Shown here in pieces: positions 15,899 through 36,772 of a stretch of DNA of 64,000 nt (its first letter is position 1; every line of letters starts with the position of its first letter). Under the pieces are notes generated by a model. It was not told where the DNA came from and did no database searches. It saw only the letters and a list, made by a program, of their open reading frames with translations. The position numbers were made by a program, and so were the translations under genes. Source of the stretch: a virus; IMG/VR virus record IMGVR_UViG_3300028802_000398; one strand, given 5' to 3'.

Positions 15899-15900
15899 AT

Positions 15901-16148: not shown

Positions 16149-16157
16149 CTGAGGACA

Positions 16158-16367: not shown

Positions 16368-16368
16368 T

Positions 16369-16446: not shown

Positions 16447-16450
16447 CTGC

Positions 16451-16642
16451 CTAGTTTGAAGCCGGAGGCAGTCTGCTCGCCCGTCGAGGCGCGACCGCGC
16501 TCTGATGTTCGAGGCCGACCCAAGTGGCGAGAAAGTAATTCACCCAGCCGAGGGCCTCGGCGACCTCCTTGGCTCCGGCTTCCAGAGAGGCAAAGGTCCG
16601 TACGAACAAGGTGAGAGTCAGGTCTTTCTTTCGTGGCTTCAT
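16451..16642 (-). CDS. Small hypothetical protein
   Basis: 63-aa ORF filling the gap between tRNA genes, GGGAG upstream. Confidence 0.4.
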   Translation of the reverse strand: MKPRKKDLTLTLFVRTFASLEAGAKEVAEALGWVNYFLATWVGLEHQSAVAPRRASRLPPASN

Positions 16643-16823
16643 GGGGTCTCCCTTTTGATTGGCGGGTCCCTGCTAATACATTCTGGCGCGGGGAAATCTT
16701 CAAGCGCTTCTTTGTGGGTTTACGCGGCACATGTTGCCATGTTTCATGCCTCCATCGTCTACGTTGGTTAGGACACGTCGTTCTCAGCGACGGAAACGGG
16801 GATCGTCGCCCCGTGGGGGCGCC

Positions 16824-16945
16824 GGTTCGTGACACAGGCTTTAGTAGGCGCGGCGACCGTCTACGTCGTAGTGGTAGCGCTCGCTTGATCAACGAGGTCT
16901 GCGCCCGGCCGAGAGGCTTAGCGCTTCATGCCGCCGTCACGGACC
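16824..16945 (+). ncRNA. Multibranch structured RNA candidate
   Basis: 10-bp closing stem GGTTCGTGAC/GTCACGGACC enclosing several hairpins; ends 3 nt before tRNA-Glu. Confidence 0.35.
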
Positions 16946-16948
16946 TTT

Positions 16949-17021
16949 GCTCCCATAGTTTAATGGTTGAGAATGCCTGGTTTTCACCCAGGCGATCGGG
17001 GTTCGATTCCCCGTGGGAGCA
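16949..17021 (+). tRNA. tRNA-Glu(TTC)
   Basis: GCTCCCA/TGGGAGC, CCTGG-TTTTCAC-CCAGG. Confidence 0.9.
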
Positions 17022-17464
17022 CTCAACGTCTGCGGATCCAGTCATCCCATTCTTCGGCTTCCGAGCGATATGGGACCTCGATCGGATTGGCCTCGCTAGG
17101 GTCACAACCACAAGCCAGGATTGGACGGCCCTCGGGCTGCTCATCGTGATCGACCGCGGCACCGCAACTAGAGCAAACGTAGTGTGTCATGACAGCCCTT
17201 CTTATTGAGGGGGCTCACCAGAGGATTACGGCGCGTAGGGTGCCTCCCTGCCCGCGCCAGAAGCAGCGCACAGAGCGCATCAACCACTAGTCGAGTCAGG
17301 GGCTTGGCTAAAATGAGCGTCCGCTAGGGGGCGCGGTGGGAAAACCTAGCGCTTTTCTGCCTAGATGTAGGTGCAAAATAGTCTGGACAATAGTCTGGAA
17401 TAGACTTTTTGGATTCAGGGCCGTTGGGCTAGTAGCTCTAGGCTTCTTATGTCACGATCTAGAC

Positions 17465-18598
17465 ATGACATACGACTTCCGAGAACGGACCGCTAGCAGC
17501 AAGAAACCTCTGTACGGACACGATAGTCCTCAGAGCGCCTATGTGATCGACGACTATCCAAGCGGCTTCCGGGCTCGGTGTCGAAAGCGTGTGTGGTTGG
17601 AGTATAAAGCCCGCAGCGGCTGGCGCCTTGTCGAGCAGACAAGCGAGAAATGGTATCCAGGGGAAGAGCCGGCCAAGGATGCCGAGTTGAGCTGGAATAA
17701 GCCGAAAGCCAGCACGTACTCTGATGTCGCCGCATGTATGTACTTGGATGCTCAGGACCACGTCCAGTACGACGCACTCAGCATGCACACGAGCGCCTCT
17801 CACGTCGCGGAGTTCATGAAGGAGTTTCCGAAGGCCGATTTTAGCGGCATCAAGGTGTGCGTGATCTTCCAGGCTAAATACCTGGTGAGCAAGCTCAAGG
17901 GCGCGACCTGGGTCGTGAACGGGGAGCCGCAGCCAGTCTCGGATCACGAGCTGGGTGAGGTTCGCAAGAACTTGGAAGCCTGGTCGGAGATTGGCAAAGA
18001 GGTGGGTGTCAAGTTCGCGCAGCCCGTCTTGGATCTGATCGAGGGCAAGGTTGCCCCCACCAAGGTTGATCCGGAGGCGGTGAAGGCCCAGATTCGTCAG
18101 GAGGAGGCGGAGGCTGCCGCTGCGCGTACGGAGGAAGCGAAGAACACTCCCGGTGCGATGAGTGCTGCCCAGTTCGTCGAGGCTCTCCAAAGTAAGATCA
18201 ATGCTGAGGGGCGCGTCGTGAGGATTGACGGCAAAGTCCGCGGCACGGGCCAGATTTACGTGAACTTCTACAACATCCCGGCGGGGGAAGCGAAAGCAAA
18301 CCGGGGCGGCGGTGCAGAGGCCGAGAACAATCGACAGATGTTTGTGATCGGCGGCTTCGATCGCAAGGACGACAATGCACTCGCCGCCAAGGTCAAGGTA
18401 GAGCTGAGTGTGAACAGCCTCAGCGTGTCTGGGATGTCTTACGCTGAAGCTAAGGCCAAGACTACCCTTCGAGCCAAGACAGGATCTCCCGCCAAGATTG
18501 CCGAGTATCTCGCGGCGCACATCAACAGAATGGTCAAGGAGATCGAGCCACGGCTCACACACGCAAAGTTCGCATCATATGACTACGGGACGCTCTGA
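17465..18598 (+). CDS. Two-domain hypothetical protein (YDFR motif), putative virion protein
   Basis: MTYDFRERTAS start, KFASYDYGTL end; CTTCTTAT 14 nt upstream. Confidence 0.7.
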   Translation: MTYDFRERTASSKKPLYGHDSPQSAYVIDDYPSGFRARCRKRVWLEYKARSGWRLVEQTSEKWYPGEEPAKDAELSWNKPKASTYSDVAACMYLDAQDHVQYDALSMHTSASHVAEFMKEFPKADFSGIKVCVIFQAKYLVSKLKGATWVVNGEPQPVSDHELGEVRKNLEAWSEIGKEVGVKFAQPVLDLIEGKVAPTKVDPEAVKAQIRQEEAEAAAARTEEAKNTPGAMSAAQFVEALQSKINAEGRVVRIDGKVRGTGQIYVNFYNIPAGEAKANRGGGAEAENNRQMFVIGGFDRKDDNALAAKVKVELSVNSLSVSGMSYAEAKAKTTLRAKTGSPAKIAEYLAAHINRMVKEIEPRLTHAKFASYDYGTL

Positions 18599-18607
18599 GC
18601 GCTCCAT

Positions 18608-18678
18608 GCGGGTATAGTTCAACGGTTGAATGCATGCTTGCCAAGCATGAGGTGAGAGTTCGATTCTCTCTACCCGCA
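18608..18678 (+). tRNA. tRNA-Gly(GCC)
   Basis: GCGGGTA/TACCCGC, CATGC-TTGCCAA-GCATG. Confidence 0.9.
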
Positions 18679-18779
18679 CCGCGTGGCTTTTGCCACCAGC
18701 TGTCCTCTCGTCTCATGTGACGGTGCGTGCCGCCAGGTCTCGCAACGTACGACGGGAAGACAGTCAGGCACCTGGTTTC

Positions 18780-18910
18780 GGAGGGTAGGGGGTCGGCCCC
18801 ATTTCGACGGTAACTCGAAAGCAGAGCCCAGCGCCGCACACTCGGTTTCCTATAGGGGAGCCCATCCGCGGTGCTCACAAGCATACTTGGTTCAAATCCA
18901 AGACCCTCCA
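18780..18910 (+). ncRNA. tRNA-like RNA A with ~65-nt variable-region hairpin (GTA loop)
   Basis: GGAGGGT/ACCCTCC-A acceptor, GGGG/CCCC D hairpin, TTTCGA-CGGTAAC-TCGAAA, CTTGG-TTCAAAT-CCAAG T arm. Confidence 0.7.
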
Positions 18911-19190
18911 CCGCCTTCGTAGAATGGGCCAGTCATTCTTGAGTGGCTCGCGCAGAGACTGACGTGCGCAGCATCTATCGGGTGACCTTTTCGTGGTTCG
19001 CGCTGCTTTGTTCTCTTTTCGGTGTACGGGGGGATGGCACTGCTGCGCGACGGAGTTATAGATGAACGCACTGATTGCACTGTCGGTTGCCTTGCTAGGC
19101 GCCGGCTGTGTGGCAAGCACGCAAGGAGTTAGCTTGTGCCAACCTCTATTTAGAGATGCATCAAGCGACAGGCCGGAAAGACGGTCTCAC

Positions 19191-19300
19191 GGGGCTTTTG
19201 GCGGGTGGCCGCCGACTGATACGGCACTAGTACCTCGGGTCTGCAAGGACCCCTATCGAGTGCCCACAAGACCTTGAGAGTTCGACTCTTTCAAGCCCCG
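19191..19300 (+). ncRNA. tRNA-like RNA B with long variable-region hairpin
   Basis: GGGGCTT/AAGCCCC-G acceptor, GGCGG-GTGG-CCGCC, GAGAG-TTCGACT-CTTTC T arm, CACAAG before T arm. Confidence 0.65.
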
Positions 19301-19303
19301 CTA

Positions 19304-19443
19304 GTTCCCGTTCACTCGCAATGACCTTACACGCACAGGTTCGAATCCTGACAAGGGGTGAAAGCTCTTTGAATGCGAGATGGTACTCGCACCCGGCTAT
19401 TAACCAGGCAAACAGCAACCAGGTCCTGCACTCGAACGGGAAC
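19304..19443 (+). ncRNA. Circularly permuted tRNA-like RNA C
   Basis: Order: terminal stem GTTCCCGTTC, T arm, GAAA-closed acceptor, D arm, anticodon-like arm, GAACGGGAAC. Confidence 0.7.
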
Positions 19444-19451
19444 GAAATTTT

Positions 19452-19583
19452 GGCCGCCTACAGGGGGTCGGTCCCCCGCCAGCCTACGGAGCTGGAGCGC
19501 AAGCTCCCAGAGCTATGACTCGTCCCTGAAAGGGGACACCGCATTGCTCTTACAAGTCAGTGGTTCGACTCCACGGGCGGCCT
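19452..19583 (+). ncRNA. tRNA-like RNA D with long variable-region hairpin (ACG loop)
   Basis: GGCCGCC/GGCGGCC acceptor, GGGGG-TCGGT-CCCCC, CCAGC-CTACGGA-GCTGG, GTGG-TTCGACT-CCAC. Confidence 0.7.
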
Positions 19584-19605
19584 CTAAGTTGTTGACTGAG
19601 ATCTT

Positions 19606-19683
19606 GGTGTGCGGTCCCGAAGTGGTCGAGGGGCTAGCCTGTGGAGCTAGTATCAGCGAGTTCGAGTCTCGTCGTACACCCCA
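19606..19683 (+). tRNA. tRNA-His(GTG)
   Basis: Encoded G-1:C73 pair, CTAGC-CTGTGGA-GCTAG, CCA. Confidence 0.92.
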
Positions 19684-19692
19684 TGTTTACTT

Positions 19693-19770
19693 GGCGACGT
19701 AGTCCAATTGGCAGGAGACGGCAGATTTAGGATCTGCACAGTGGAGGTTCGAATCCTCTCGTCGCTACCA
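19693..19770 (+). tRNA. tRNA-Leu(TAG), short variable loop
   Basis: GGCGACG/CGTCGCT, GCAGA-TTTAGGA-TCTGC, A73, CCA. Confidence 0.88.
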
Positions 19771-19771
19771 T

Positions 19772-19844
19772 CGCTCCGCGCCCATGGTGGGTGCCCCACT
19801 CTCATAAGGTGGCTAGGCTGCGGGATCGTTACCCGACGGAGCGA
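19772..19844 (+). tRNA. tRNA-Met/Ile2(CAT)
   Basis: CGCTCCG/CGGAGCG, CCACT-CTCATAA-GGTGG; T-loop ATCGTTA. Confidence 0.75.
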
Positions 19845-19847
19845 CTA

Positions 19848-20216
19848 ATGCCCGATTTCTTAGAGGTTCTAAAGGGCCTGCCAACGCAAGTGCGGCTGCG
19901 CTATGCCGCCTATAGGCAAGGGACCCCTAAGGAAGGCCAACACGCGCTGGATGCCGAGCCAGAGGAAGTTGTGGTGGTGATCCAGTTTTCGGAGAGCGGT
20001 TTCGGGTTTGGTGAAGTCGTGATCAAGCAGACCCCACAAGGGGTGTTCGTTGACACGGAGTGCATGAGCCTAGAGCGGGTGAAGAAGTATCTGGCAGCGA
20101 TTGTTGACTCGGCCATCACGGACAACGACCAAGATCCCGACAAGCATGCACTATACAATGAGGTCATGATGCGCGGGTGCGGCCAGCGGTGCCGTGTCTG
20201 TTTCCCGGAAGAGTGA
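19848..20216 (+). CDS. Hypothetical protein, paralogue of 20231-20614
   Basis: Shared GTPKEG, QTP.GVFVDTE..SL.RVKK.L, ITDND.DP.KHALYN and C-terminal CxxxCxxC. Confidence 0.75.
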   Translation: MPDFLEVLKGLPTQVRLRYAAYRQGTPKEGQHALDAEPEEVVVVIQFSESGFGFGEVVIKQTPQGVFVDTECMSLERVKKYLAAIVDSAITDNDQDPDKHALYNEVMMRGCGQRCRVCFPEE

Positions 20217-20230
20217 TCGATCATAGATAG

Positions 20231-20614
20231 GTGACTGCCGATATGATGCCAACCTTTCGAGAGGTCCTTGATGGTCTGCCAACACGAGCGCGGCTGCAGC
20301 ACGCGTATTATAAAGAGGGCACCCCCAAGGAGGGCCAGTATAGACAGCAGGTCGAGCCCGAGAGGCTTGCTGTAGTGGTGCAGCACTCCGAAAATGGGGT
20401 CGGGTGGGGCGAGTTCACGATCGTCCAAACTCCCCTTGGCGTGTTCGTAGACACCGAGAACACAAGCCTAGACCGGGTAAAAAAGAATCTGACAGCGCTT
20501 CTTGAGTCAGCGATCACAGATAACGATTTGGACCCAGAGAAGCACGCTCTTTACAATAGCGTGATGGGACGGGTATGCGGCTTGTGGTGTCGCGTCTGTG
20601 ATTCGGCGGAGTGA
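20231..20614 (+). CDS. Hypothetical protein, paralogue of 19848-20216
   Basis: End-to-end similarity to the adjacent gene. Confidence 0.75.
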   Translation: MTADMMPTFREVLDGLPTRARLQHAYYKEGTPKEGQYRQQVEPERLAVVVQHSENGVGWGEFTIVQTPLGVFVDTENTSLDRVKKNLTALLESAITDNDLDPEKHALYNSVMGRVCGLWCRVCDSAE

Positions 20615-20619
20615 AGCTC

Positions 20620-20693
20620 GCCCAGTTAGCACAATAGGCAGTGCACCGGATTTGTACCCCGGTGATGCGGGATCGTGCCCCGCACTGGGCTCC
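20620..20693 (+). tRNA. tRNA-Thr(TGT), anticodon arm one nt short
   Basis: GCCCAGT/ACTGGGC-TCCA; CCGG-ATTTGTAC-CCGG; T-loop ATCGTGC. Confidence 0.7.
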
Positions 20694-20708
20694 AGGTAGC
20701 GCGGCTCA

Positions 20709-21194
20709 TTGAATGTTTTCGGACGAATCATGGACCAGCCAGAAGCCACTAAGCCAACGCCCACGACACAGTCCATCCTGTTTTTTCGTCTGCGGGACCA
20801 GCTCCCGCAGCTGGAGGAGCTGCTCAGGATCGTCAACGATGAGTGGGTCTACGAAGACCTCGTGTATCGGTTTTACCACTTGAGCTTCAAAGTCTACCGG
20901 ATTCAGCCCTATACGATAGAGATTGTCGAGGCGCTGCAGGCGCTCGCCCCAGACCTTATTCTGAACCCGTTTTTCCTTGAGATTTACCAAAAGGGCATCG
21001 GTCATGAGTACGAGTGGAGCCATAACGACAGTTGGCTAGAGCGCGCTCGGCCGATGGTCGAGGCATTCTTTCATGCGAAGTTCATGCTGGAGATGGCTGT
21101 TCGCCACGGTCAGAAATTCAGGCAGCAGGATACCGCGCCGCAGTTGTTGGAGTCCGGGTGGGCGGCGTTTCTGTACTTCTTCAATCTCAGATAG
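20709..21194 (+). CDS. Hypothetical protein
   Basis: 161-aa globular-looking ORF (YEDLVYRFYHLSFKVY, SGWAAFLYFFNLR). Confidence 0.7.
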   Translation: MNVFGRIMDQPEATKPTPTTQSILFFRLRDQLPQLEELLRIVNDEWVYEDLVYRFYHLSFKVYRIQPYTIEIVEALQALAPDLILNPFFLEIYQKGIGHEYEWSHNDSWLERARPMVEAFFHAKFMLEMAVRHGQKFRQQDTAPQLLESGWAAFLYFFNLR

Positions 21195-21717
21195 GGCAGC
21201 CATTTGACGGCATCCGTGGGTCAGGCGCCCCGGCCCAGAAGGTCGTGATGATCATCGCGGCGACACCTTTCATCGCAAACACCACGGTGAGCCCGGACGG
21301 ACTCTCGAAGCGGATCTCGTCACCGTAGGCCAGCTTGGTGGTGAGCTGTGTATGAAGTTTGGGGCTTCGGGTCTCGTATTGTTCGAGCTGCTTGTTGAAA
21401 GCGGCGAGGGCAGCCCGCACATCGTCTATCGTCACTGACCTGAGGTCCATCCGGTATTGGGCGTGAGGTCCGACCACGATCTGTTTGATGAAGGCCACGC
21501 CCGGCTCGCGGTCAAGATGGTAAATCTTGGCTGCCTCCGGGTTGGATAGGTCGTCGCCATGCTCGACTTCTTCGATCAGGTGTTTCTGAAGCACGGGGGA
21601 CGGCACTTGGTCACGGATGCGATGGATGACCTGGCATGGGCCACCTGGGTCACCGAGGGGCGGGTGCAGGTCGGCAGCCAGAAATCTAGCCAAGACTCTT
21701 TGGGCATTGGGACTCAC
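21187..21717 (-). CDS. Hypothetical protein with RVLARF N-terminal motif
   Basis: MSPNAQRVLARFLAA; TCTTTTAC 15 nt upstream; C-terminal H..YR..R...IITTF pattern loosely resembles a BECR RNase. Confidence 0.65.
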   Translation of the reverse strand: MSPNAQRVLARFLAADLHPPLGDPGGPCQVIHRIRDQVPSPVLQKHLIEEVEHGDDLSNPEAAKIYHLDREPGVAFIKQIVVGPHAQYRMDLRSVTIDDVRAALAAFNKQLEQYETRSPKLHTQLTTKLAYGDEIRFESPSGLTVVFAMKGVAAMIITTFWAGAPDPRMPSNGCPI

Positions 21718-21746
21718 GATTCAGAGCTGGCAGTAAAAGAACAGCG

Positions 21747-21819
21747 GGGGCCGTAGCTCACCTGGGAGAGCGCTTGCGTGGCACGCAAGAGGTAGAGGGT
21801 TCGACCCCCTCCGGCTCCA
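21747..21819 (+). tRNA. tRNA-Ala(GGC)
   Basis: GGGGCCG/CGGCTCC with G3:U70, CTTGC-GTGGCAC-GCAAG. Confidence 0.88.
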
Positions 21820-22068
21820 CGAATGCTCTGCACGAACGGGCCGTGACTGGACCTGGTTTCAAGAATAGGGTGTCACGAGTGCCTCATGAATCATGAGTCG
21901 TGCCAGGTTCTCAGGGTTGAAGTAGCTTGCGAGGGCTATACAGTCTGGCGTGGGGTATGGCCTGCGTATGGGCTCTCAAGCACTACGGGAAGTTTGCAAG
22001 CCAGGATATGTGAAGCTGACCGACGCATGTACTGGACGCGCGCTGTCATGAGCATGTAGAAGCGGCAG

Positions 22069-25000
22069 ATGGGTTCTGAACGAGGCGCCTACGATCTGCA
22101 ATTGGAGAACTCAGAATTGACGGCTCAGACCCTTGAGTGCCAACGGTTGGAAGCCGCATTGCAGGCTGAAATCATAGAACGCAAGCGCCTAGAAGCAGCG
22201 CTCTGCAAGAGCGAACAGCGCTTCCAGCGCCTCGCCGACACCGGACTCATCGGCATTTTCACGACCAACTCTCAAATGACCATCCTAGAGGCGAACACCG
22301 CGTTTCTGGGTATGGTTGGTTACTCGCGAGACGAACTGCTCGCTCTGGAGATCCGTTGGGACCGGCTGACGCCTCCGGAGTTATTGCAGCGGGACCTGAG
22401 GGAGAAGGCGGAAAGTCAGCGCACAGGCGTGGTTCTGCCGTACGAGAAAGAACTCGTACATAAGGACGGGCGGCGAATCCCAGTCTTGATCGGTGGTGCC
22501 CATCTCGACAGTACCGCGGACGAAGCGATCTGCATTGTCCTGGACATGACTGGTCAGAAGCACGCTGAGGAGGTCAAGAGGGCGCAAGCGATTGCTGAGG
22601 CAGAAATCGCTGAACGTCAGCGCGTAGAAGCGGAGCTATACAAGAGTAAAAGACGCTTCAAGCGTCTTGCCGACGCTGGGATTCTTGGCATTGTTTCGGC
22701 CGACCTCGATAGGAATATCGAGGATGTCAACGATGCGTTTGCGAGGATGCTGGGCTACACGCGGGAGGAATTGACCGATAGCCAACTCGGGTGGAGGCGG
22801 CGACTCACGCCTCCGGAGTATTGGGGGGCAGACGATCGTGCGCGCGAACAACTAGAGCGCACGGGAATGCTTCACGGGTATGAGAAGGAATACCTACACA
22901 AGGACGGTAGCCGAGTCCCCGTTTTGATTGGTTCGGCGGTTCTTGATGAGCCTGGGCAGGGGCGCGAGGCTATCAGCTGTATCCTGGACTTGAGCCACCT
23001 TAAGCGCGCCGAAGACGCACTCCGTGAGAGCGAACAACGCTTTCAGAGACTCTCGGACTCTGGGGTCATCGGCATTTTCACATCTGGCTATGACGGTAGA
23101 ATCATAGCCGCCAATGATGCCTTCTTGGGCGTGATTGGCTACTCGCAAGACGACGTGACATCGGGACAACTTCGTTGGGATCAACTTACGCCCCCGGAAT
23201 GGGACGCATACGACGCGCAGGCGATGGCGGACTGTCGGATCACGAAAGTGGCCCATCCGTATGAGAAAGAGTATTTCCACAAGGATGGCCACCGAGTCCC
23301 AATCTTGATTGGCGGTGCTCAGGTGGACGATACTCTGGGTGTGGGTACTTGCTTTGTCGTGGACCTGAGCGAACGCAAGCGCGTTGAAGCTGCGCTCCGC
23401 CAGAGCGAGCGGCGTTTCAAGACGCTCGCTGAGTCTGGGGTCATCGGTCTGCTTACGGCCGATCTTGATGGGCGCATCCTGGACGCCAATGCTGCATTTG
23501 CCAAGATGCTTGGTTATTCGCGAGATGAGATGGCCGCGGGACAGCTCCGTTGGGATCACCTCACGCCTCCGGAGTGGGGGGAGCGAGATGCGCAAGCGAT
23601 CGCGGAAATACGAGTCTCGAAAGTGCTTTACGGGTATGAGAAGGAATACCTACACAAGGACGGAAGCCGAGTCCCAGTCTTGATTAGTGCTGCGGTGCTT
23701 ACCGACGAGCCGGAAGGGGCGGTCGTCTGCTGTGTCCTGGACCAGACTGATCGCAAACGCGCTGAGGAACTGCGCATAGCGCACATTCAAGTAGAGGCAG
23801 CGCTCCGCAAGAGTGACCTTCTCCTTCAAGGACTTGTCGCTTCCGACATCATCGGCATCCTAAGCGGTGATGCCAGTGGACATATCGTGGACGCTAATGA
23901 TGCGTTCTTGGGGATGGTCGGCTACACGCGAGATGAACTGAACGCTGGTATGGTCCAATGGGATCACCTCACGCCTCCAGAGTGGCGTGAGCGAGCTGCA
24001 CGTGCGCGCGATGAAGGCCTCCGCGAAGGCGCGGTTCGTGCATTCGAGAAGGAACTCTTCCACAGAGACGGCCGGCGAATCTCAGTCTTGATCGGCGGTG
24101 TTCTGCCGGAGGCGGCGATTAATGGCGTCGCCTTTGTCCTGGATCTGTCTCACCGCAAGCAAGCTGAAGTTCTGCGCGAGCAACATGCGGTCGCTGAAGC
24201 TTCCAGCCGAGCCAAGACCGAGTTTCTCTCGTCTATGAGCCATGAGCTGCGCACGCCGCTCAATGCCATTCTTGGGTTTGCCCAGCTACTGCGGCGCGAC
24301 AAGAAGCAGCCGCTATCCGAGCGCCACTTAGATCGGGTCAACCAGATCTTGAACGGCGGAGAGCACCTGCTGCGTTTGATTGAGGACATCTTGGACTTAT
24401 CGCGCATCGAGTCGGGCGGTGTTTCCGTCTCCATCGAGCCGCTCGATGCGTACCAGATTCTTGAGCAGCTGATGCCTGCGCTCGACCCGCTCGCTGCGCG
24501 GTCACAAATCACCATCACTCTGGCAGATTCGCCAGACGATTTGCCACTGGTGGCAGCAGACCGCGTCCGGCTGACCCAAATCCTGACGAACTTCGCGTCT
24601 AACGCCATCAAGTACAATCGAGCTGGAGGTTCGGTCCAGCTTCGCCTCGCAATGAGCGGGCGGGGCCATGTGCGCCTGCTTGTGTCAGACACAGGCATCG
24701 GGATACCGCATGAGAAGCAGGGGCTGCTCTTTCAAGCATTTCAGCGCGCAGGACAAGAGAATGGGAGCATTGAAGGCACCGGCATCGGTCTGTTCATTGC
24801 ACAGCGCTTGGCTCAGCTCATGCTCGGTGCGGTGGGCTTTCGCAGCACGTTGGGACAAGGCTCGGAATTCTGGGTCGACATTCCGATCGCACGTATGCAG
24901 GAGTCCATCAGCTCGCAAGTGCCTCGCACATCGCTGGCAAAGGCTGCGGCCGTTTTGAGAGGGCGTCGAGTCATCCTGCAAGTTGAAGACAGCCCTACCA

Positions 25001-32507: not shown

Positions 32508-34391
32508 ATGGGTAAAATGGCAAACGAAAACCTTGGACCGGCAGAGCGCATTCTCGACACCGTGATCGGCTACTCCGACCACTGCGTCCACAACCGCGCA
32601 GGTATTGTGATCCCGGATGTTGGCTCCGCGATCGGAGTGAAGTGGCTTCCGGTCACTCACGTCGTTGAAGACGGGGACAAGGTTGTCTACGAGTTACGCA
32701 AGGTCGGCAAGAAGACTGCCAAGTTCAAGCTCGGCAAGCTCAAGGAGGACGGTCGCGTCAAGGACGTGAATCGGGTCATCGGTCGTTACCAGCCCGCGGG
32801 GCTCTTCGCAGATGTAGCGGTGTGGATGTATCGCCAGGTCGTCGAGGTTTGGAAGCTCGACAATGAGTTCGCGGCCAAGTGGGCATCGCACGAGTTCGTG
32901 CAGCTGCAGGAGCGGCGTGACCTCAAGGTGATCATGGCGGCATTCCTCTTGGTTCAGTCCCGCAAGGGTGACCCGGTGATTGATGCCGGCAAGGTCGCTT
33001 TCTTCGATGAAGACTTGCGAGATGTCGGAGAGGCCATGCTGTTGTTGAGCGGCAAGGACATTAAGGACGTGAAGTCGTTCAACCCGAAGCTTCTGCTTCG
33101 TGTGCATGACGTGTTGATGTTGCCAGGAGTGGCGGCGATCAACCGTGAGCTTGGTTTTGGTCGCTCGGCGCGTAACCCATTCTTGGGCCGTTGGACTAAG
33201 GCGGTAGAGAAGTGGCTTCTCTTCCGTGAGGAAAATCCGCGTCTGCTTGATGGTTTGGTGAAGGCAGGGTTTCGTCGCACGGTGATGGAGTTGGCGCGTC
33301 GTGTTCACTACAAGCCGACCACCCCGCGCTTCTTTGAGGCGCTGCGTTGGAAGCAAGCCCAGGCCAAGGATGGTCGCCGATCGATTGCGATCGGTCAGGC
33401 GGTGCAGGCTGCTGAATCTTGGGAAGGCTTCACCGAGCAACAGATTTGTGAGGCGATCGTCCGCACTAGACCAAACTTCAAGCGCGTGGTTGGGCTTTTA
33501 CCAAAGGGTCAGGGCCTCACCCGTGCGATCGTCGCTGCCGCAATCGAGGTTGGCGCGATGTCTGACAAGGATCTGATCATCGCAACTCCGACTCTTGAGG
33601 AACTTGGTCTCTTGGATGTTCAAGAGGTTCGCGAGCGTTGGGAGCGGGCTATCAAGGCCGCGGAGGATATGCGGGCCGTGAATATCGCGACTCGCGTCAA
33701 GTCCACGGCTACTCAAGAGAAGCTACATGAAGCGGCGGATAACGCCGTCAAGCTAGCTGTCGCCGAAGTTGTCAGGGGTCTCCGCATCTATGTGATCGTG
33801 GATATCTCGGGCTCGATGCAGAATGCGATCGTCGAGGCCAAGGTGTACATCGCCAAGTTCCTGCAGGCGTTTCCACAGGAGCAGCTGCACGTCTCGGTCT
33901 TCAGCACCGCGGGTCGTGAAGTTGAGATCAAGCATGCATCGGCTGCTGGTGTGGAGAATGCGTTCCGCGGCATCTTTGCTGGCGGCGGCACATTGCATGC
34001 GCAGGGCGTCAGGGCTCTGAGCAAGCACAAGCCCAAGGTAGATGAAGACGCGCTGATGATTTTCGTCGGCGACGAAGAAGAGCACTCGACATTCGAGGCA
34101 GCCGTGCGTGACTCGGGTATCAATCCGGTAGCGTTCGGCTTACTCAAGGTGCGTGAGTGCGTGTCGTCTTGTGTGCGCGACACCGCAGCGAGACTAGCAA
34201 TCCCGTGCTTCATGATTGAGGCGCAGACGTTTTCTGATGTCTATGCTATCCCGCGGGTCCTACGTGCATTGATCTCGGCGACCCCAGTGGGTAAGACCAA
34301 GGGCAGCCCGTTGTTTGTCCCCAGGGTCTCCCTGGTAGACACGATTCTGAATACCAAGCTGCTGGTGAAGCCCGTGTGGGCTAGCGCGTGA
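32508..34391 (+). CDS. vWA-domain protein with long helical N-terminus (TROVE/Ro60-like architecture)
   Basis: C-terminal MIDAS VDISGSM, GGT, FVGDEE; basic alpha-helical N-terminal ~430 aa. Confidence 0.75.
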   Translation: MGKMANENLGPAERILDTVIGYSDHCVHNRAGIVIPDVGSAIGVKWLPVTHVVEDGDKVVYELRKVGKKTAKFKLGKLKEDGRVKDVNRVIGRYQPAGLFADVAVWMYRQVVEVWKLDNEFAAKWASHEFVQLQERRDLKVIMAAFLLVQSRKGDPVIDAGKVAFFDEDLRDVGEAMLLLSGKDIKDVKSFNPKLLLRVHDVLMLPGVAAINRELGFGRSARNPFLGRWTKAVEKWLLFREENPRLLDGLVKAGFRRTVMELARRVHYKPTTPRFFEALRWKQAQAKDGRRSIAIGQAVQAAESWEGFTEQQICEAIVRTRPNFKRVVGLLPKGQGLTRAIVAAAIEVGAMSDKDLIIATPTLEELGLLDVQEVRERWERAIKAAEDMRAVNIATRVKSTATQEKLHEAADNAVKLAVAEVVRGLRIYVIVDISGSMQNAIVEAKVYIAKFLQAFPQEQLHVSVFSTAGREVEIKHASAAGVENAFRGIFAGGGTLHAQGVRALSKHKPKVDEDALMIFVGDEEEHSTFEAAVRDSGINPVAFGLLKVRECVSSCVRDTAARLAIPCFMIEAQTFSDVYAIPRVLRALISATPVGKTKGSPLFVPRVSLVDTILNTKLLVKPVWASA

Positions 34392-34403: not shown

Positions 34404-35363
34404 ATGGGATGGAGAGACTTGCTGGAGGCAGAGGGCAGCACGATCGTGTTGCCTTGGGTCGGTGGTAGGTCACTCCGTTCCGGCGCTCGCGTCTGGTATC
34501 TCGATGGCGTGCTGCCGAAGGAGCATGCTTGGGTCAAGTTGCAGTTGAGAGGACGTAGGGCCATTGTTCAGGAGATTTGTTATCCTGAGCCCAGCAACCT
34601 GTTTCGGCGGGTTGTTGGGTACCTGGTTGGCGATCGCTTGATCGACACGGACGGCTACGTCGACCCGGACCCGAAGGTCATTGCCGCTCATTCGGAGAGG
34701 GTGCACCTGATTGATCAGGGATTGGATCGGTTTGTTCGGGTCTCTGCGGGGCGCGCTTACGAGGATGGGCCGCTTGTTTTCATTCAGCAGGAAATGCCAC
34801 TCGGGCCGGAGACGGAAGTGCAGTCGGCTTATCTAGATGACAGACCAACCGTTGACGCGGTGCCCGGCGTCACTCCTGCATTGGACGCGGCCTTTCGCAT
34901 GGCGCGTTGGCAGCGCGTCGAGGCCGAACGCAGACGCGTGGAGTTGGAGGCGCAGCGTCGTAGAGAGGGTGAAGAGAGAGAACGAGAGGCACGTCGCCGG
35001 GAGATTCTCGCGAGGCTTGGGGACGGTGCTGGTCGTCGCGAGATGGCTGCCGTCGATTTTGAGGCGGCGGCGCGGGCGGCGTTGACGGTTGGCGGCGTGA
35101 CGTATTTGGAGCACAGACCATCGCACCGCCAGGGGGAGATGGTGGTGCGCTTCCGGCTCGATGGGCGTCGATTTGAATGCACCTGCGATCGCCACACTCT
35201 CAGGATCCTAGATGCCGGCATCTGTCTGACCGCGCATGGAGACGATGATGATTTTGAACGCGGGACCAAGGGAGACACCCTTTTTACGCTCGAAAGTTTG
35301 CCCGCAGTCATCAGGCAAGCCGACCGGGAGGGGAAGCTTGTTGTGTTTCGTCACGTCGACTGA
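34404..35363 (+). CDS. Putative E2 (UBC-like) domain protein
   Basis: Coiled coil followed by beta-meander ending in ILDAGICL, matching the UBC G-x-I-C-L catalytic motif; operon context. Confidence 0.55.
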   Translation: MGWRDLLEAEGSTIVLPWVGGRSLRSGARVWYLDGVLPKEHAWVKLQLRGRRAIVQEICYPEPSNLFRRVVGYLVGDRLIDTDGYVDPDPKVIAAHSERVHLIDQGLDRFVRVSAGRAYEDGPLVFIQQEMPLGPETEVQSAYLDDRPTVDAVPGVTPALDAAFRMARWQRVEAERRRVELEAQRRREGEEREREARRREILARLGDGAGRREMAAVDFEAAARAALTVGGVTYLEHRPSHRQGEMVVRFRLDGRRFECTCDRHTLRILDAGICLTAHGDDDDFERGTKGDTLFTLESLPAVIRQADREGKLVVFRHVD

Positions 35364-35370
35364 TGATTTC

Positions 35371-35376
35371 GGTGTA
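35371..35376 (+). promoter_or_regulatory. GGTGTA promoter-like motif (representative copy, before JAB)
   Basis: TTCGGTGTAA 10 nt upstream of ATG; the motif recurs before many genes. Confidence 0.55.
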
Positions 35377-35386
35377 ATACAGCACG

Positions 35387-35761
35387 ATGTCCATCGAAGT
35401 CGGCGTACTGGTCAATCTCGATTGCGAGCCTTTTTTTTGGCATCTGCCGGAGGGACGCGAAGTCGCCTCGCTCCCCGACAGTCGAGACCTTTGGAATATC
35501 ATCTGGGATCACAGAGACGAGGTGTTGGGGTTCGCGCATAGTCATCCTGGGTCTGGTGTGCCCGAACCGTCGGAAGAGGATCTGACGACATTTGCGGCGG
35601 TCGAGTCTGGTCTCGGTAAGCGGCTCGTGTGGTGGGTTACGAGCCGTGACGAGTCTATAGAGCTATATTGGCGCGGGCCGGGCAAGCTTGATTATGGCAC
35701 GGTACCGGTGATGTATGAGCCAGAGTGGATGTCGGAGTTGCGGACTCTCTCTCGATTTTGA
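35387..35761 (+). CDS. JAB/MPN metallo-isopeptidase
   Basis: GFAHSHPGSGVPEPSEED = H-S-H-P-x7-S-x2-D JAMM motif. Confidence 0.9.
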   Translation: MSIEVGVLVNLDCEPFFWHLPEGREVASLPDSRDLWNIIWDHRDEVLGFAHSHPGSGVPEPSEEDLTTFAAVESGLGKRLVWWVTSRDESIELYWRGPGKLDYGTVPVMYEPEWMSELRTLSRF

Positions 35762-35772
35762 TTGGAGGATAT

Positions 35773-36036
35773 ATGGAGGAATTTGAAGCTCGCGTTAACG
35801 TCACCTACGCCGGGTCTAACGCAGACCTTCCGGACCCAGTGCCTTTCGATACCGGCGATGCTGTGGTTCGGGAGCTTGTCGAGGAAGCGATCCGAACGGG
35901 AAGCCTTCCTGGGGTCCCGCTGGATAAAGATGTCAGCCTCAGCGACTACGTTGTGGATCGATTCAGTGCGACGACGGAGCGAGGGCATCACGTGATGTTC
36001 TTGAGACCAAAGACGCCGTTCGGCACCGCGTCCTGA
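35773..36036 (+). CDS. Ubiquitin-like (beta-grasp) protein with C-terminal extension
   Basis: 87 aa, RBS GGAGG, ends LRPKTPFG-TAS; lies between JAB and E1. Confidence 0.7.
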   Translation: MEEFEARVNVTYAGSNADLPDPVPFDTGDAVVRELVEEAIRTGSLPGVPLDKDVSLSDYVVDRFSATTERGHHVMFLRPKTPFGTAS

Positions 36037-36068
36037 TGTATTTTCTAGGCTGGGAAGGATGGCACAGG

Positions 36069-36209
36069 GTGCACAGGTATAGCTGTGTTGCCTGCGGTGC
36101 CGTAGTAGAGAGCCCGCACGAGTGGGGCGGCGGACCCCCTCCTAAGTGCCCCGAGGGTTGCCGGTTCGATCCGGAGACAAAGATATGGACAAGACGAAAG
36201 GCGGAATGA
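36069..36209 (+). CDS. 46-aa Zn-ribbon protein (not in the ORF track)
   Basis: MHRYSCVACGAVVESPHEWGGGPPPKCPEGCRFDPETKIWTRRKAE; TGA overlaps the E1 ATG. Confidence 0.55.
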   Translation: MHRYSCVACGAVVESPHEWGGGPPPKCPEGCRFDPETKIWTRRKAE

Positions 36210-36772
36210 AGGTGACTGTTATCGGAATGGGAGCCCTTGGCTCCCATTTCATTTTGTTCGCTCGAAACTTCGCAGAGCTGAAGGGGATCGACGATGGTCG
36301 TGTGAAATCGAAGAGCCCTGTGGCGCAGTTTCACGGCAAGCCGCAAGTTGATCGCGGCAAGGCACAAGCGCTCCAGCAGACCATGCAGTTCTTGTTTGGG
36401 GTCAAGGTCATGGCGGTGCCGCACCGGCTTACCGTAGACAACACTCAGCAATTGCTTGGCGGCGCCGATCTGTTGGTTGACTGTTTGGACAACGCGCCAT
36501 CACGTGGGCTGGTTCAGGCTTTCGCGCGTTCTAGTGGGACTCCATGCTTGCACGGTGCGTTGGCGGCGAACGGGCAATACGGTCGGGTTGTCTGGGACGA
36601 GTATTTTGTGATTGATGGGGCGGCTCCGGGCGCGGCGACTTGCGAGGACGGAGAGCACTTGCCTTTCATCGCTATGGTTTCTTCTCTGTTGTCCCGCGCT
36701 GCTCAAGAGTTCTTGGGTAGCGGGCGCAAGATCGGCTTTGAGATTCATCCTACTGGTGTAGCCAGGACCTAG
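36206..36772 (+). CDS. ThiF/E1-like adenylating enzyme
   Basis: VIGMGALGS nucleotide-binding loop, LLVDCLDN..SR, candidate catalytic Cys in AATCED. Confidence 0.85.
   Translation: MKVTVIGMGALGSHFILFARNFAELKGIDDGRVKSKSPVAQFHGKPQVDRGKAQALQQTMQFLFGVKVMAVPHRLTVDNTQQLLGGADLLVDCLDNAPSRGLVQAFARSSGTPCLHGALAANGQYGRVVWDEYFVIDGAAPGAATCEDGEHLPFIAMVSSLLSRAAQEFLGSGRKIGFEIHPTGVART

What the first reader, a model, noticed from the sequence alone, without database searches (positions are those of the whole stretch)
19304..19443. Circularly permuted tRNA mimic with a tetraloop-sealed acceptor stem
Seen, 5' to 3': GTTCCCGTTC; ACTC internal loop; T arm CAGG-TTCGAAT-CCTG (19336-19350); acceptor-like helix CAAGGGGT-GAAA-GCTCTTTG (19352-19371); D arm GCGAG-ATGGTA-CTCGC; anticodon-like arm CCCGG-CTATTAA-CCAGG; CCAG...ACTC; GAACGGGAAC (perfect 10-bp closure). 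The ends lie inside the same variable-region hairpin that is continuous in neighbours A, B and D, so this looks like a permuted member of the same family that cannot be charged. Established: bacterial and phage YrlA Y RNAs are tRNA mimics with a closed acceptor stem and a long end-forming stem bound by Ro60. As I recall, YrlA lacks a separate anticodon arm, whereas this element keeps one. Inference: a Y-RNA-like or new permuted tRNA mimic, sitting beside its non-permuted relatives.
Basis: partly seen in the sequence, partly recalled or inferred. Interest (0 to 1): 0.88.

Follow-up and report, generated by a model that had tools for sequence, protein, structure and literature searches.

The report
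Back-to-front tRNA mimic, Y-RNA-like
This 140-base stretch of a huge soil phage encodes a real, conserved RNA shaped like a tRNA whose ends have been moved into a long side arm and whose amino-acid-accepting end is sealed shut; it belongs to a large uncatalogued family that travels with a distant relative of the Ro60 RNA-surveillance protein.

Summary
Window 19304-19443 folds (z -4.0) into a 10-bp terminal helix, an ACUC/ACUC internal loop, two short helices, then T arm, GAAA-capped acceptor-like hairpin, D arm and anticodon-like arm. I found orthologues in 5 further lineages and then in 28 of 33 huge-phage genomes (200-620 kb). On 33 sequences, 92.6% of cells pair and 35 of 39 pairs show compensatory changes.

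Neighbours A, B and D carry the same arm signatures (…ACUC-G…, YACAAG before the T arm) with the arm closed and the acceptor open. C is therefore a circular permutant of that family.

It is not in Rfam and fails the YrlA model, the GNCGAA motif and the Pfam TROVE neighbour test. It has YrlA's T-acceptor-D order. The helical+vWA protein at 32508-34391 is probably a very divergent Ro60: the three Ro60 representatives top an exhaustive fold search, and hhalign gives P 1e-4. In 21 of 28 genomes a family RNA lies within 5 kb of that gene on the same strand.

Most likely it is a non-chargeable Y-RNA-like partner of this protein. Binding and expression are untested. About a third of family members encode N-CCA in the acceptor loop.

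The scan found this system before on other DNA (e1-4035439).

The parts
19304..19313 (+). 5' strand of the 10-bp terminal helix (GUUCCCGUUC)
   Evidence: Pairs perfectly with 19434-19443. All 10 pairs show compensatory changes across 33 family members.
19314..19317 (+). 5' side of the internal loop (ACUC; family consensus A-N-C-A)
   Evidence: Unpaired in the MFE fold. Conserved in type across the family.
19318..19327 (+). 5' strands of two short helices (GCA, GACCU) of the handle
   Evidence: Pair with 19427-19429 and 19421-19425. Helices 2 and 3 covary.
19328..19335 (+). Conserved single-stranded linker UACACGCA (family: UACA[A/C/U]GCA) just before the T arm
   Evidence: Nearly invariant in 33 family members. 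Present as YACAAG in A, B and D.
19336..19350 (+). T arm CAGG-UUCGAAU-CCUG with a canonical T loop
   Evidence: The T loop GGUUCGAAUCC is almost invariant and the stem covaries.
19352..19371 (+). Acceptor-like 8-bp hairpin sealed by a GAAA tetraloop (19360-19363); no discriminator-CCA
   Evidence: Orthologues cap it with GCAA, CUA, UUCG or UCG. 8 of 8 pairs covary.
19375..19390 (+). D arm GCGAG-AUGGUA-CUCGC with the GG of a D loop
   Evidence: In more distant members it reads GUGGCGGAAUGGUAGACGC, the D arm of tRNA-Leu.
19392..19408 (+). Anticodon-like arm CCCGG-CUAUUAA-CCAGG (5-bp stem with a C.A mismatch, 7-nt loop)
   Evidence: In the family the stem has compensatory changes at 5 of 5 pairs and 98% of cells pair. 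The loop is 7 nt in 24 of 33 members but its sequence is not conserved.
19409..19433 (+). 3' half of the handle: linker CAAACAGCAACC, AGGUC, UGC and the conserved ACUC directly before the terminal helix
   Evidence: (C)ACUC-G is nearly invariant in the family. The same CCAG...ACUC-G occurs in A and D, and CCUC-G in B.
19434..19443 (+). 3' strand of the terminal helix (GAACGGGAAC)
18780..18910 (+). Element A: unpermuted tRNA-shaped relative (open 7-bp acceptor, compact D hairpin, conserved hairpin with loop CGGUAAC, closed long arm, T arm)
   Evidence: Fold z -3.65. Orthologues in L001 and L006. Not called by ARAGORN or Rfam.
19191..19300 (+). Element B: unpermuted relative ending 3 nt before C
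19452..19583 (+). Element D: unpermuted relative starting 8 nt after C; the closest in sequence to rotated C
32508..34391 (+). Gene for a 627-aa beta + helical-repeat + vWA protein, probably a very divergent Ro60/TROVE-like protein; candidate partner of the RNA family
   Evidence: for the fold and profile evidence. for genomic linkage to the RNA family.
34404..36772 (+). Downstream genes of the same operon: a 319-aa unknown, JAB peptidase, small Ubl-like ORF, ThiF/E1
   Evidence: Pfam Prok-JAB and ThiF hits. The same order occurs in L143. In most family genomes the RNA lies just after this operon.

Best explanation
Window 19304-19443 encodes a structured non-coding RNA that is a circular permutant of a class II (tRNA-Leu-like) tRNA.

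Architecture (shown):
- The 5' and 3' ends pair to form a long 'handle': a 10-bp helix, a conserved A-N-C-A / (C)ACUC internal loop, two short helices and a conserved single-stranded UACA(A/C)GCA. The handle occupies the position of the variable arm.
- T arm, D arm and an anticodon-like arm are kept.
- The acceptor stem is closed into a hairpin. In this phage lineage it is capped by a tight tetraloop or triloop, so there is no 3' end to aminoacylate.
- The RNA belongs to a large family, absent from Rfam 15, that is found in huge phages.

Release from the transcript (inferred): C lies 3 nt after tRNA-like element B and 8 nt before D. RNase P and 3'-end processing of its neighbours would therefore cut it out of a B-C-D transcript.

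Function (inferred): it works like a bacterial Y RNA of the YrlA type. The handle would bind the phage's own very divergent Ro60-like (helical repeat + vWA) protein encoded at 32508-34391, whose gene heads an operon with JAB, Ubl and E1 genes. The tRNA-shaped module would present a tRNA look-alike to a tRNA-recognising factor, either to tether it or to gate the Ro60-like ring. The setting would be RNA surveillance or protection of the phage's large tRNA pool during infection.

Elements A, B and D carry the same handle in closed form on unpermuted tRNA bodies. 'Handle-only' mini versions exist in relatives. Both observations point to the handle as the common functional part.
For: Structure:
- MFE fold z -3.96.
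- Orthologues keep the same order in L001/L002, L006, L019, L014 and L026.
- Covariation on 8 sequences: 19 of 39 pairs with double changes, 0 of 500 shuffles reach the score.
- Covariation on 33 sequences: 35 of 39 pairs, score 0.764 against 0.20, slid controls at most 0.14.

Permutation:
- Shared motifs with A, B and D.
- Rotated C against D gives z 3.3, against -0.6 unrotated.
- Apical loops of A, B and D are GNRA-type caps, so opening them costs nothing.

Sealed acceptor in this lineage: loops GAAA, GCAA, CUA and UUCG, with no CCA.

Handle as the functional unit: mini-C RNAs keep the handle but lack the tRNA body (L006 10340-10410, L019 57-131).

Y-RNA likeness:
- Same T-AS-D order, closed AS and end-forming stem as YrlA (PMC4201824).
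- Stem-bulge-stem as in phage phiLo Yrl1/2, which bind phiRo60 in EMSA (PMC12135203).
- A phage element with a GAAA-sealed AS lies 5.5 kb downstream of a canonical TROVE gene (L030).

Protein:
- The full-length AF2 model gives TROVE/Ro60 as the top Foldseek PDB hits, aligned over 485-570 columns.
- The helical part alone, searched exhaustively against 48,161 chains, puts the three Ro60 representatives first: Z 8.8, 8.5 and 8.4 with about 250 residues aligned; the next hit is Z 7.0.
- Ro60 is the highest-probability non-self row in AFDB.
- hhalign against 23 true TROVE proteins gives P 1e-4 to 2e-4, collinear over 218-289 columns.
- Protein language-model neighbours include TROVE clusters at 0.85-0.88.

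Linkage:
- 28 of 33 huge-phage records that encode this protein have a full-length family RNA at E <= 1e-6.
- The nearest copy is within 5 kb on the same strand in 21 of 28, and in 17 of those it lies downstream, just after the operon. All 44 hits are on the gene's strand. A uniform null expects 0.73.
Against: - No RNA data exist: only soil DNA runs hold the sequence. Transcription, ends and processing are therefore inferred.
- No binding test was possible.
- The protein has no Pfam TROVE hit in any of 28 members and no sequence hit to solved Ro60 chains.
- The fold matches superpose poorly (rmsd about 20 A, TM about 0.2). Z 8-9 is within the range the tool warns can arise between helical repeats. 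hhalign probability is only 47-57%.
- In this window the RNA lies 13 kb upstream of the gene, not within 4-5 kb.
- The operon sits inside the tRNA arrays. By my count of the listed rows, roughly a quarter of ordinary tRNAs lie within 5 kb of the gene. A fair null therefore expects about 10 of 28, not 0.7.
- The genomes are related, so the 28 are not independent.
- The YrlA covariance model does not match C, not even at E <= 10. The GNCGAA motif is absent from the 5' strand.
Confidence: 0.58

Rival explanations
1. It is a permuted tRNA gene in the strict sense. RNase P would open the acceptor hairpin and 3' trimming or CCA addition would follow. The product would be a two-piece tRNA held together by the terminal helix, able to be charged and perhaps to decode. 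This would parallel two-piece tmRNA from permuted genes, or M. smegmatis YrlA.
For: - 11 of 33 family members have N73-CCA directly after a 7-bp acceptor 3' strand, followed by a 2-20 nt spacer. CCA at that position is expected in about 1 in 64 by chance.
- L034, L026 and L036 show the same feature.
- M. smegmatis YrlA, which has a 7-bp closed acceptor, is cut by RNase P and receives CCA in vivo (PMC4201824).
- C has a 7-nt loop with U33 (CUAUUAA).
Against: - In this window and its three closest lineages the hairpin is 7-8 bp and capped by GAAA, GCAA, CUA or UUCG. There is no discriminator-CCA and no spacer. Special stable tetraloops argue that the closed form is the one selected.
- The anticodon-like triplet is not conserved between orthologues: AUU, AUA, UGG, GAA and many others.
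- There is no BHB motif at the ends for circularisation.
Confidence: 0.08
2. It is a tRNA-shaped decoy or scaffold that acts without the Ro60-like protein. Possible roles: soaking up a host anticodon nuclease or another tRNA-targeting defence; titrating a tRNA-modifying or processing enzyme; or binding a different phage protein, such as the conserved 420-aa protein encoded just upstream of the cluster. On this reading the tRNA body serves mainly for stability and processing.
For: - The tRNA elbow features are intact: T loop, GG in the D loop, and a covarying anticodon-like stem.
- It is embedded in a 34-gene tRNA array.
- The 420-aa gene is syntenic with the cluster in L001, L002 and L006.
- The proximity to the Ro60-like gene is partly explained by both lying in the tRNA arrays.
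- Five genomes with the protein show no RNA hit.
Against: - The most conserved sequence is in the handle, not the tRNA body, and mini-C RNAs keep only the handle.
- The anticodon loop, the usual nuclease target, is free to vary.
- Homologues of the 420-aa gene also occur with no such RNA or tRNAs nearby (L008, L011, L010).
- The excess of copies placed just after the Ro60-like operon exceeds the tRNA-based expectation.
Confidence: 0.28
3. It is a rearranged, decaying tRNA pseudogene or a chance fold with no function.
For: It is not called by ARAGORN or Rfam. Phage tRNA arrays do contain degenerate copies.
Against: It is conserved across phages whose neighbouring proteins are only 50-60% identical. 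Compensatory changes occur in every helix, and the element is found in 28 of 33 related huge-phage genomes.
Confidence: 0.02

Closest known systems
YrlA-type bacterial and phage Y RNAs with Ro60/Rsr (Chen et al. 2014, PMC4201824; Rfam RF02553; structure in bioRxiv 10.1101/312249)
   Same: Both are tRNA mimics with the order T arm, closed acceptor-like hairpin, D arm. The 5' and 3' ends pair in a long stem with an internal loop. They are often encoded among phage tRNA genes, on the same strand as a TROVE+vWA-type gene. In the comparison phage element L030 the AS hairpin is also capped by GAAA.
   Different: - The ends open in the variable arm, not the anticodon stem, so a separate covarying anticodon-like arm is kept and there is no V hairpin before the T arm.
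- There is no GNCGAAN0-1G motif near the 5' end. The conserved marks are UACA(A/C)GCA and (C)ACUC-G.
- There is no match to RF02553.
- The putative partner is not recognisable as TROVE by Pfam, carries an extra N-terminal beta domain and heads a JAB-Ubl-E1 operon.
- In this window the gene is 13 kb away.
Thermus phage phiLo phiRo60 with Yrl1/Yrl2 (PMC12135203)
   Same: A phage-encoded Ro60-type protein with phage-encoded stem-bulge-stem RNAs next to its gene. phiLo Ro60 (PDB 9l5y) is the top structural match of the helical domain here.
   Different: As described in the passages read, Yrl1 and Yrl2 are stem-bulge-stem RNAs with a CGAA motif, and no tRNA-like module is mentioned. phiRo60 is a recognisable Ro60 homologue, and RNA binding has been shown there but not here.
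Circularly permuted tRNA genes of Cyanidioschyzon merolae and other algae, and of Thermofilum pendens
   Same: The 3' half (T arm, acceptor 3' strand) is encoded upstream of the 5' half (acceptor 5' strand, D arm, anticodon arm). In a third of the family the junction carries N-CCA plus a short spacer.
   Different: Those genes mature through a circular intermediate made at a bulge-helix-bulge motif and yield ordinary continuous tRNAs. Here no BHB motif is present, the ends sit in a 10-bp helix that looks like the mature form, and in this window the acceptor is sealed by a tetraloop.
Two-piece tmRNA from permuted ssrA genes (alpha-proteobacteria, cyanobacteria; from my own knowledge)
   Same: A bacterial precedent for a permuted tRNA-like gene, whose product stays in two pieces held by base pairing.
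   Different: There is no tag reading frame and no pseudoknots. ARAGORN calls no tmRNA here.

Membership tests
YrlA / bacterial Y RNA (Rfam RF02553) | Module order T arm, closed acceptor-like stem-loop, D arm, enclosed by a stem formed by the 5' and 3' ends | tested here: met
   MFE fold and covariation in all helices. Feature definition from PMC4201824.
YrlA / bacterial Y RNA (Rfam RF02553) | Scores at or above the family's gathering threshold (69 bits) with the Rfam covariance model | tested here: not met
   No RF02553 match to 18500-19800 even at E <= 10. In the 255-kb relative the only hit, at 29.5 bits, falls on two adjacent tRNA-Asn genes by my conversion of its coordinates. However, candidates about 5-11 kb from the TROVE gene in a Myxococcota genome also reach only 27-32 bits, so the model is narrow.
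YrlA / bacterial Y RNA (Rfam RF02553) | GNCGAAN0-1G motif near the 5' end, in the Ro60-binding stem | tested here: not met
   The 5' strand reads GUUCCCGUUCACUCGCA. A CUCGAACG exists on the 3' strand of this copy only and is not conserved: CUCGAGCG in L001, CUCGGAAG in L006.
YrlA / bacterial Y RNA (Rfam RF02553) | Encoded within about 4 kb of a Ro60/TROVE gene on the same strand | tested here: inconclusive
   No Pfam TROVE in the ORFs scanned and no tblastn hit in the window; none in the 255-kb and 86-kb relatives. A fold-level Ro60-like gene lies 13 kb downstream on the same strand. In 21 of 28 related genomes a family RNA is within 5 kb of that gene.
YrlA / bacterial Y RNA (Rfam RF02553) | Bound by Ro60/Rsr; carries tRNA modifications (pseudouridine 55, dihydrouridine) | not testable with these tools
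   No RNA or protein data. The complex predictor takes no RNA.
Circularly permuted tRNA gene (algal/archaeal type) | 3' half encoded upstream of the 5' half, with acceptor strands joined by an intervening sequence | tested here: met
   Order T arm, acceptor 3' strand, loop, acceptor 5' strand, D arm, anticodon-like arm.
Circularly permuted tRNA gene (algal/archaeal type) | Bulge-helix-bulge motif at the transcript ends for endonuclease cleavage and circularisation | tested here: not met
   The ends form a continuous 10-bp helix followed by a symmetric 4x4 loop. There are no 3-nt bulges spaced by 4 bp.
Circularly permuted tRNA gene (algal/archaeal type) | Junction that can be processed to a mature 5' end and a discriminator-CCA 3' end | tested here: not met
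   This copy has 8 bp closed by GAAA and no CCA. The feature is met in 11 of 33 other family members.
Circularly permuted tRNA gene (algal/archaeal type) | Conserved anticodon defining an isoacceptor | tested here: not met
   The loop triplet differs between orthologues (AUU, AUA, UGG, GAA...) and across 33 members.
tmRNA (one- or two-piece) | Tag-peptide reading frame and tRNA-Ala-like acceptor | tested here: not met
   ARAGORN finds no tmRNA in the window. There is no G3:U70 and no ORF in the element.
Ro60/TROVE protein family (for ORF 32508-34391) | Alpha-helical HEAT-like TROVE module followed by a vWA domain | tested here: inconclusive
   vWA is clear: Pfam and Z 14.6. The helical module's best exhaustive structural matches are the three Ro60 representatives, Z 8.4-8.8, and hhalign gives P 1e-4. 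However, there is no Pfam TROVE hit in 28 members, rmsd is about 20 A, and no closed ring was modelled.

The most novel reading that the evidence does not exclude
Huge phages carry a previously undescribed ribonucleoprotein system. Its protein part is a very divergent Ro60-like protein, wired to a ubiquitin-like conjugation cassette. Its RNA subunits are circularly permuted tRNAs. In about a third of these RNAs the acceptor loop encodes N-CCA and would be opened by RNase P, giving natural two-piece tRNAs with a CCA end that might be charged and that are held together through the variable arm. The sealed form in this window would be a derived, non-chargeable version of the same molecule, kept beside unpermuted chargeable carriers (A, B, D) of the same protein-binding handle.
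Probability: 0.2. Interest if true: 0.9.

Novelty: new variant of a known kind. Interest (0 to 1): 0.7.

Why it matters
Y RNAs and Ro60 are a conserved RNA-surveillance pair whose bacterial and phage biology is still thin. If this reading holds, three things follow.

- **A large new branch.** The family occurs in dozens of 200-620 kb phage genomes in the collections searched here. Its RNA is a tRNA permuted at a different point from YrlA, and its protein has diverged beyond Pfam recognition.
- **A link to ubiquitin-like chemistry.** The Ro60-like gene heads an operon with JAB, Ubl and E1 genes. I found no published description of such a link in the papers searched.
- **A natural series for experiments.** One family contains sealed, CCA-bearing, unpermuted and handle-only versions of one RNA. 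That makes it possible to test which part binds the protein and what the tRNA shape is for. It may also show how permuted or split tRNA genes arise in bacterial viruses, where I found none described.

It also has practical value: these RNAs are missed by tRNA finders and by Rfam, so they are currently unannotated in huge-phage genomes.

Tried and rejected
- **Rfam 15.** At gathering thresholds over the whole window, and at E <= 10 over 18500-19800, only ordinary tRNAs and noise appear; there is no Y RNA or YrlA hit.
- **YrlA model on relatives.** Only sub-threshold hits, at least two of them on adjacent tRNAs. My own model R2 also picks up tandem tRNA-Leu genes at 20-45 bits, so I counted only full-length hits of 47 bits or more and inspected the four best-scoring alignments.
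- **Exact-pattern scans.** The T-arm pattern hit only an ordinary tRNA-Arg (L003). The D/anticodon pattern gave seven chance matches, apparently in coding DNA (L015-L018, L020-L022).
- **TROVE by sequence.** No hit in the window ORFs scanned or in close relatives by Pfam, tblastn, phmmer against PDB, or profile against PDB.
- **Structure searches.** Foldseek with the helical domain alone gave nothing below E 0.05. The VIA re-alignment of the full-length model showed only the vWA domain. The ESM Atlas shape search gave only HEAT repeats.
- **Expression.** Only soil DNA runs hold the sequence and there are no RNA runs.
- **Promoters and terminators.** The sigma-70 promoter and intrinsic terminator scan of 18650-19800 found none. 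The GGTGTA motif upstream at 19018 is not enriched by a simple count: 12 found against 8.6 expected.
- **A, B, C, D as the missing tRNA-Ser set.** Rejected, because no Ser anticodon sits in a proper 7-nt loop and the loops are not conserved between phages.
- **Not run.** Complex prediction, because it takes no RNA chain. The window's own genome is not held.
Full report
**1. What is there**

The window is a piece of a huge phage genome assembled from a soil metagenome.
- It encodes a chaperonin, ribonucleotide reductase, NAD ligase, RecD2 and RecA.
- It has no match in the cultured-phage collection beyond its tRNAs.
- No whole genome is held for it, and its DNA is found only in soil DNA runs.
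- ARAGORN tRNAs between 13.2 and 30.2 kb, covering every amino acid except Ser.

The finding lies in a gap of that array. The unconstrained minimum-free-energy fold reproduces the proposed architecture: -49.5 kcal/mol, z -3.96, 0 of 200 shuffles as stable. From 5' to 3' it has:
- a perfect 10-bp terminal helix;
- a symmetric ACUC/ACUC internal loop;
- two short helices (GCA/UGC and GACCU/AGGUC);
- a junction carrying a T arm with a canonical UUCGAAU loop;
- an 8-bp hairpin capped by GAAA;
- a D arm with GG in its loop;
- a 5-bp arm with a 7-nt loop, CUAUUAA.

**2. Is it more than chance?**

The protein encoded just upstream (17336-18598) led to related phage contigs. L001 and L002 carry the same four elements A, B, C and D. 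Their C copy differs from the window's by compensatory changes in the terminal helix and in the acceptor-like hairpin, and its tetraloop is GCAA instead of GAAA.

A covariance model of C (R1) then found more distant copies with the same permuted order:
- L006, at 54.6 bits, has a UUCG tetraloop, a D arm identical to that of tRNA-Leu, and a terminal helix changed at many pairs.
- Pattern scans of metagenome, genome and viral collections added L019 (loop CUA), L014 (loop UCG), a Myxococcota chromosome (L026) and L034.

On these 8 sequences 92% of cells pair, 19 of 39 pairs show changes on both sides, no shuffle of 500 reaches the observed covariation, and slid controls are five-fold lower.

A second model (R2) was run on 33 huge-phage records and gave 33 further full-length copies. 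On these, 92.6% of cells pair and 35 of 39 pairs have double changes. The score is 0.764 against 0.20 in shuffles, and 0.09-0.14 when the partners are slid. Every helix is supported, including the anticodon-like stem. One caveat applies: these alignments are fitted to the model.

The structure is real and under selection.

**3. Is it a permuted relative of A, B and D?**

A (18780-18910), B (19191-19300) and D (19452-19583) fold as tRNA-shaped molecules. Each has an open 7-bp acceptor stem, a compact D hairpin with GG, a T arm, and a long bulged arm in place of the variable loop. ARAGORN and Rfam miss them.

Their arm carries the same marks as C's handle, in the same order:
- CCAG followed after 7-8 nt by (A)CUC-G at the start of the apical helix;
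- YACAAG a few nucleotides before the T arm.

In A, B and D the apical helix is capped, mostly by GNRA loops that differ between phages. In C that helix is the 10-bp terminal helix and carries the ends.

C cut in its tetraloop and rejoined at its ends aligns to D with z 3.3 (1 of 500 shuffles). Unrotated C gives z -0.6. The alignments to A and B alone are weak, at z 1.1-1.5.

Relatives also contain 'mini-C' RNAs with the complete handle but only about 20 nt in place of the tRNA body (L006 10340-10410, L019 57-131). I conclude that C is a circular permutant of the A/B/D type and that the handle is the shared part.

**4. Comparison with YrlA**

The defining features are taken from Chen et al. 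2014 (PMC4201824):
- stem-loops in the order V, T, AS (closed acceptor-like), D;
- ends paired in a stem that replaces the anticodon stem;
- a GNCGAAN0-1G motif near the 5' end;
- location within about 4 kb of Ro60 on the same strand.

C shares the T-AS-D order, the closed AS and the end-forming stem. It lacks the V hairpin, keeps an anticodon-like arm, lacks the motif on its 5' strand, and does not match RF02553 even at E <= 10. It is therefore not a member of the Rfam family.

The Rfam model is narrow, however. YrlA-model hits about 5-11 kb from the TROVE gene of a Myxococcota genome score only 27-32 bits. A phage element with V-T-AS(GAAA)-D, 5.5 kb downstream of a canonical TROVE gene, scores 21 bits (L030).

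**5. The candidate partner**

Evidence against a Ro60 identity, by sequence:
- Pfam sees only a vWA domain.
- There is no TROVE hit in any of 28 family members.
- There is no sequence hit to solved Ro60 chains.

Evidence for, at fold and profile level:
- An AF2 model of the whole protein (pLDDT 73) gives TROVE and Ro60 entries as the top Foldseek PDB hits. These include 9kop, 2i91, 1yvp, 2nvo and phage phiLo 9l5y, at E about 5e-7 to 1e-5 (most near 1e-6). They align over 485-570 columns, but with TM about 0.2 and much of the score coming from the vWA domain.
- The helical part was folded alone (pLDDT 77) and compared without Foldseek to 48,161 representative chains. The three Ro60 representatives come first, at Z 8.8, 8.5 and 8.4 with about 250 residues aligned; the next hit is Z 7.0. 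The rmsd is about 20 A, and these Z values are in a range the tool warns about for helical repeats.
- Foldseek on PDB and AFDB gives only E about 0.1, although the Ro60 rows have the highest probabilities.
- A profile-profile comparison with 23 true TROVE proteins gives P 1e-4 to 2e-4 and probability 47-57%. The alignment is collinear over 218-289 columns and runs from the helical region into the vWA domain.
- Language-model neighbours include TROVE clusters at 0.85-0.88.

Taken together I rate a divergent Ro60-like protein at about 75%.

Downstream of the gene come a 319-aa protein with no Pfam match, then a JAB peptidase, a small ORF and a ThiF-type E1.

**6. Genomic linkage**

The protein is highly conserved: more than 1,600 relatives pass E <= 1e-5, and the 120 best listed are at least 62% identical. 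63 IMG/VR loci encode it.

Of 33 records over 190 kb, 28 have a full-length family RNA at E <= 1e-6.
- The nearest copy is within 5 kb on the same strand in 21 of 28.
- In 17 of those it lies downstream, at 2.5-4.5 kb, which is just after the operon.
- All 44 hits are on the gene's strand.
- A uniform null expects 0.73.

This overstates the case, for two reasons. First, the operon itself sits inside the tRNA arrays. In five genomes roughly 13-47% of the listed tRNAs lie within 5 kb of the gene; this is my count of the rows, where 64 rows were not listed. A tRNA-aware null therefore expects about 10 of 28. Second, the genomes are related. The excess remains, but it is moderate evidence.

In this window's clade the RNA has moved 13-15 kb upstream, next to A, B and D.

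**7. What the family shows about the acceptor hairpin**

Among 33 copies, 18 have loops of 2-4 nt, including UUCG, GCAA and GUAA. Another 11 read N73-CCA directly after a 7-bp acceptor 3' strand, followed by 2-20 nt before the 5' strand. L034, L026 and L036 are similar.

CCA at that exact place in a third of copies is not chance. It recalls M. smegmatis YrlA, which RNase P cuts and which receives CCA. Some family members may therefore become two-piece molecules with a CCA end.

The window's copy and its three nearest lineages are sealed by stable loops and carry no CCA. For them, the closed, non-chargeable form is the simplest reading.

The anticodon-like loop is 7 nt in 24 of 33 copies but free in sequence. 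This argues against decoding and for a structural role.

**8. Mechanism**

Shown:
- the fold, its conservation and the permutation;
- the shared handle;
- the sealed acceptor in this lineage;
- the genomic link to a vWA protein with Ro60-like fold signals.

Inferred:
- C is transcribed with B and D and released by RNase P and 3'-end processing of its neighbours (3-nt and 8-nt spacers).
- The handle binds the Ro60-like protein as a stem-bulge-stem, as in other Ro60-Y RNA pairs (PMC12135203).
- The tRNA-shaped module recruits or blocks a tRNA-recognising factor.

The rivals are a two-piece chargeable tRNA, a Ro60-independent decoy or scaffold, and a pseudogene. They are weighed in their own section of this report.

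**9. Novelty and precedent**

Three literature searches turned up no paper that describes this RNA family or permuted tRNA genes in phages. A jumbo-phage survey mentions only that a few phages have a TROVE protein with a tRNA-like partner (PMC7824862).

The scan itself has met the same system on other DNA. Note e1-4035439 describes a Ro60-like/Ubl cassette followed by tRNA-mimic RNAs in huge phages. I reached the linkage before reading that note, so it agrees with my result but is not independent evidence.

I class the finding as a new variant of a known kind (Y-RNA-like tRNA mimic), with a less likely but more novel reading given separately.

Noticed in passing
window 13197-30155: The 34 ARAGORN tRNAs cover every amino acid except serine. 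The related arrays in L001, L002, L006 and L010 also show no tRNA-Ser in the stretches fetched. A, B, C and D have no Ser anticodon in a proper loop, so they do not obviously fill the gap.
   Followed up: partly
L006 10340-10410; L019 57-131: 'Mini-C' RNAs. They have the same terminal helix, internal loop, GACCU/AGGUC helix and UACACGC linker as C, but about 20 nt replace the whole tRNA body. This resembles a YrlB-like short partner beside a YrlA-like long one.
   Followed up: partly
L006 9311-9363: A roughly 50-nt minimal tRNA-like element (6-bp acceptor, one hairpin, T arm) lies directly upstream of the C copy. It occupies the place that B has in the window.
   Followed up: no
window 19064-19277: A small ORF begins MNALIALSVALLGAGC, which looks like a signal peptide plus lipobox. 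It is conserved at the protein level in L001 (9487 onward) and runs into element B. It could be a small lipoprotein gene, or a conserved leader of the B-C-D transcript.
   Followed up: no
window 31521-32099: A SpoU/TrmH-type RNA 2'-O-methyltransferase gene sits about 400 nt upstream of the Ro60-like gene and directly after a tRNA (31436-31503). It is a plausible modifier of the phage tRNAs or of the tRNA mimics.
   Followed up: no
L001 7557-9410: Between A and B, the relatives L001 and L002 carry two ORFs that the window lacks. One is Cys-rich and HNH-like (also present in L006 at 9713-10210). The other has an HPD motif suggestive of a J domain. This looks like mobile insertions inside the RNA cluster.
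   Followed up: no
L026 6873-7145 (Myxococcota MAG OZ245034, about 4.38 Mb); L043, L045 (same genome, 853-862 kb): A bacterial chromosome carries a C-type RNA whose acceptor loop reads ACC plus spacer, followed by a second permuted unit. Elsewhere, a canonical TROVE gene (848,972-849,880) lies 5-13 kb from a 20-tRNA array and from tRNA-like units with large inserts in place of the anticodon region. This may be a prophage or an island related to these phages, and it hints at Myxococcota as hosts.
   Followed up: partly
L036 (IMG/VR 3300000970_000052) 136.0-137.2 kb; L034: Tandem permuted tRNA-like units in which each acceptor 3' strand is followed by ACC(A), a 5-7 nt spacer and a perfectly complementary 5' strand. 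They resemble permuted tRNA genes more than sealed mimics.
   Followed up: partly
window 22069-25356: A 1095-aa hybrid histidine kinase (multiple PAS domains, HisKA, HATPase, receiver) is encoded in the middle of the phage tRNA region.
   Followed up: no
L006 13498-13851: The related phage encodes a tmRNA (tag ANDNGFAVAA) inside its tRNA array. None is called in the window.
   Followed up: no
window 19018-19026 and 11 other sites: The motif TTCGGTGTA (GGTGTA core) lies about 165 nt upstream of B, and similar motifs lie upstream of the RNA clusters in L001, L006 and L019. In the window 11 of 12 matches are on the + strand, but the count is not above shuffles (12 against 8.6).
   Followed up: partly
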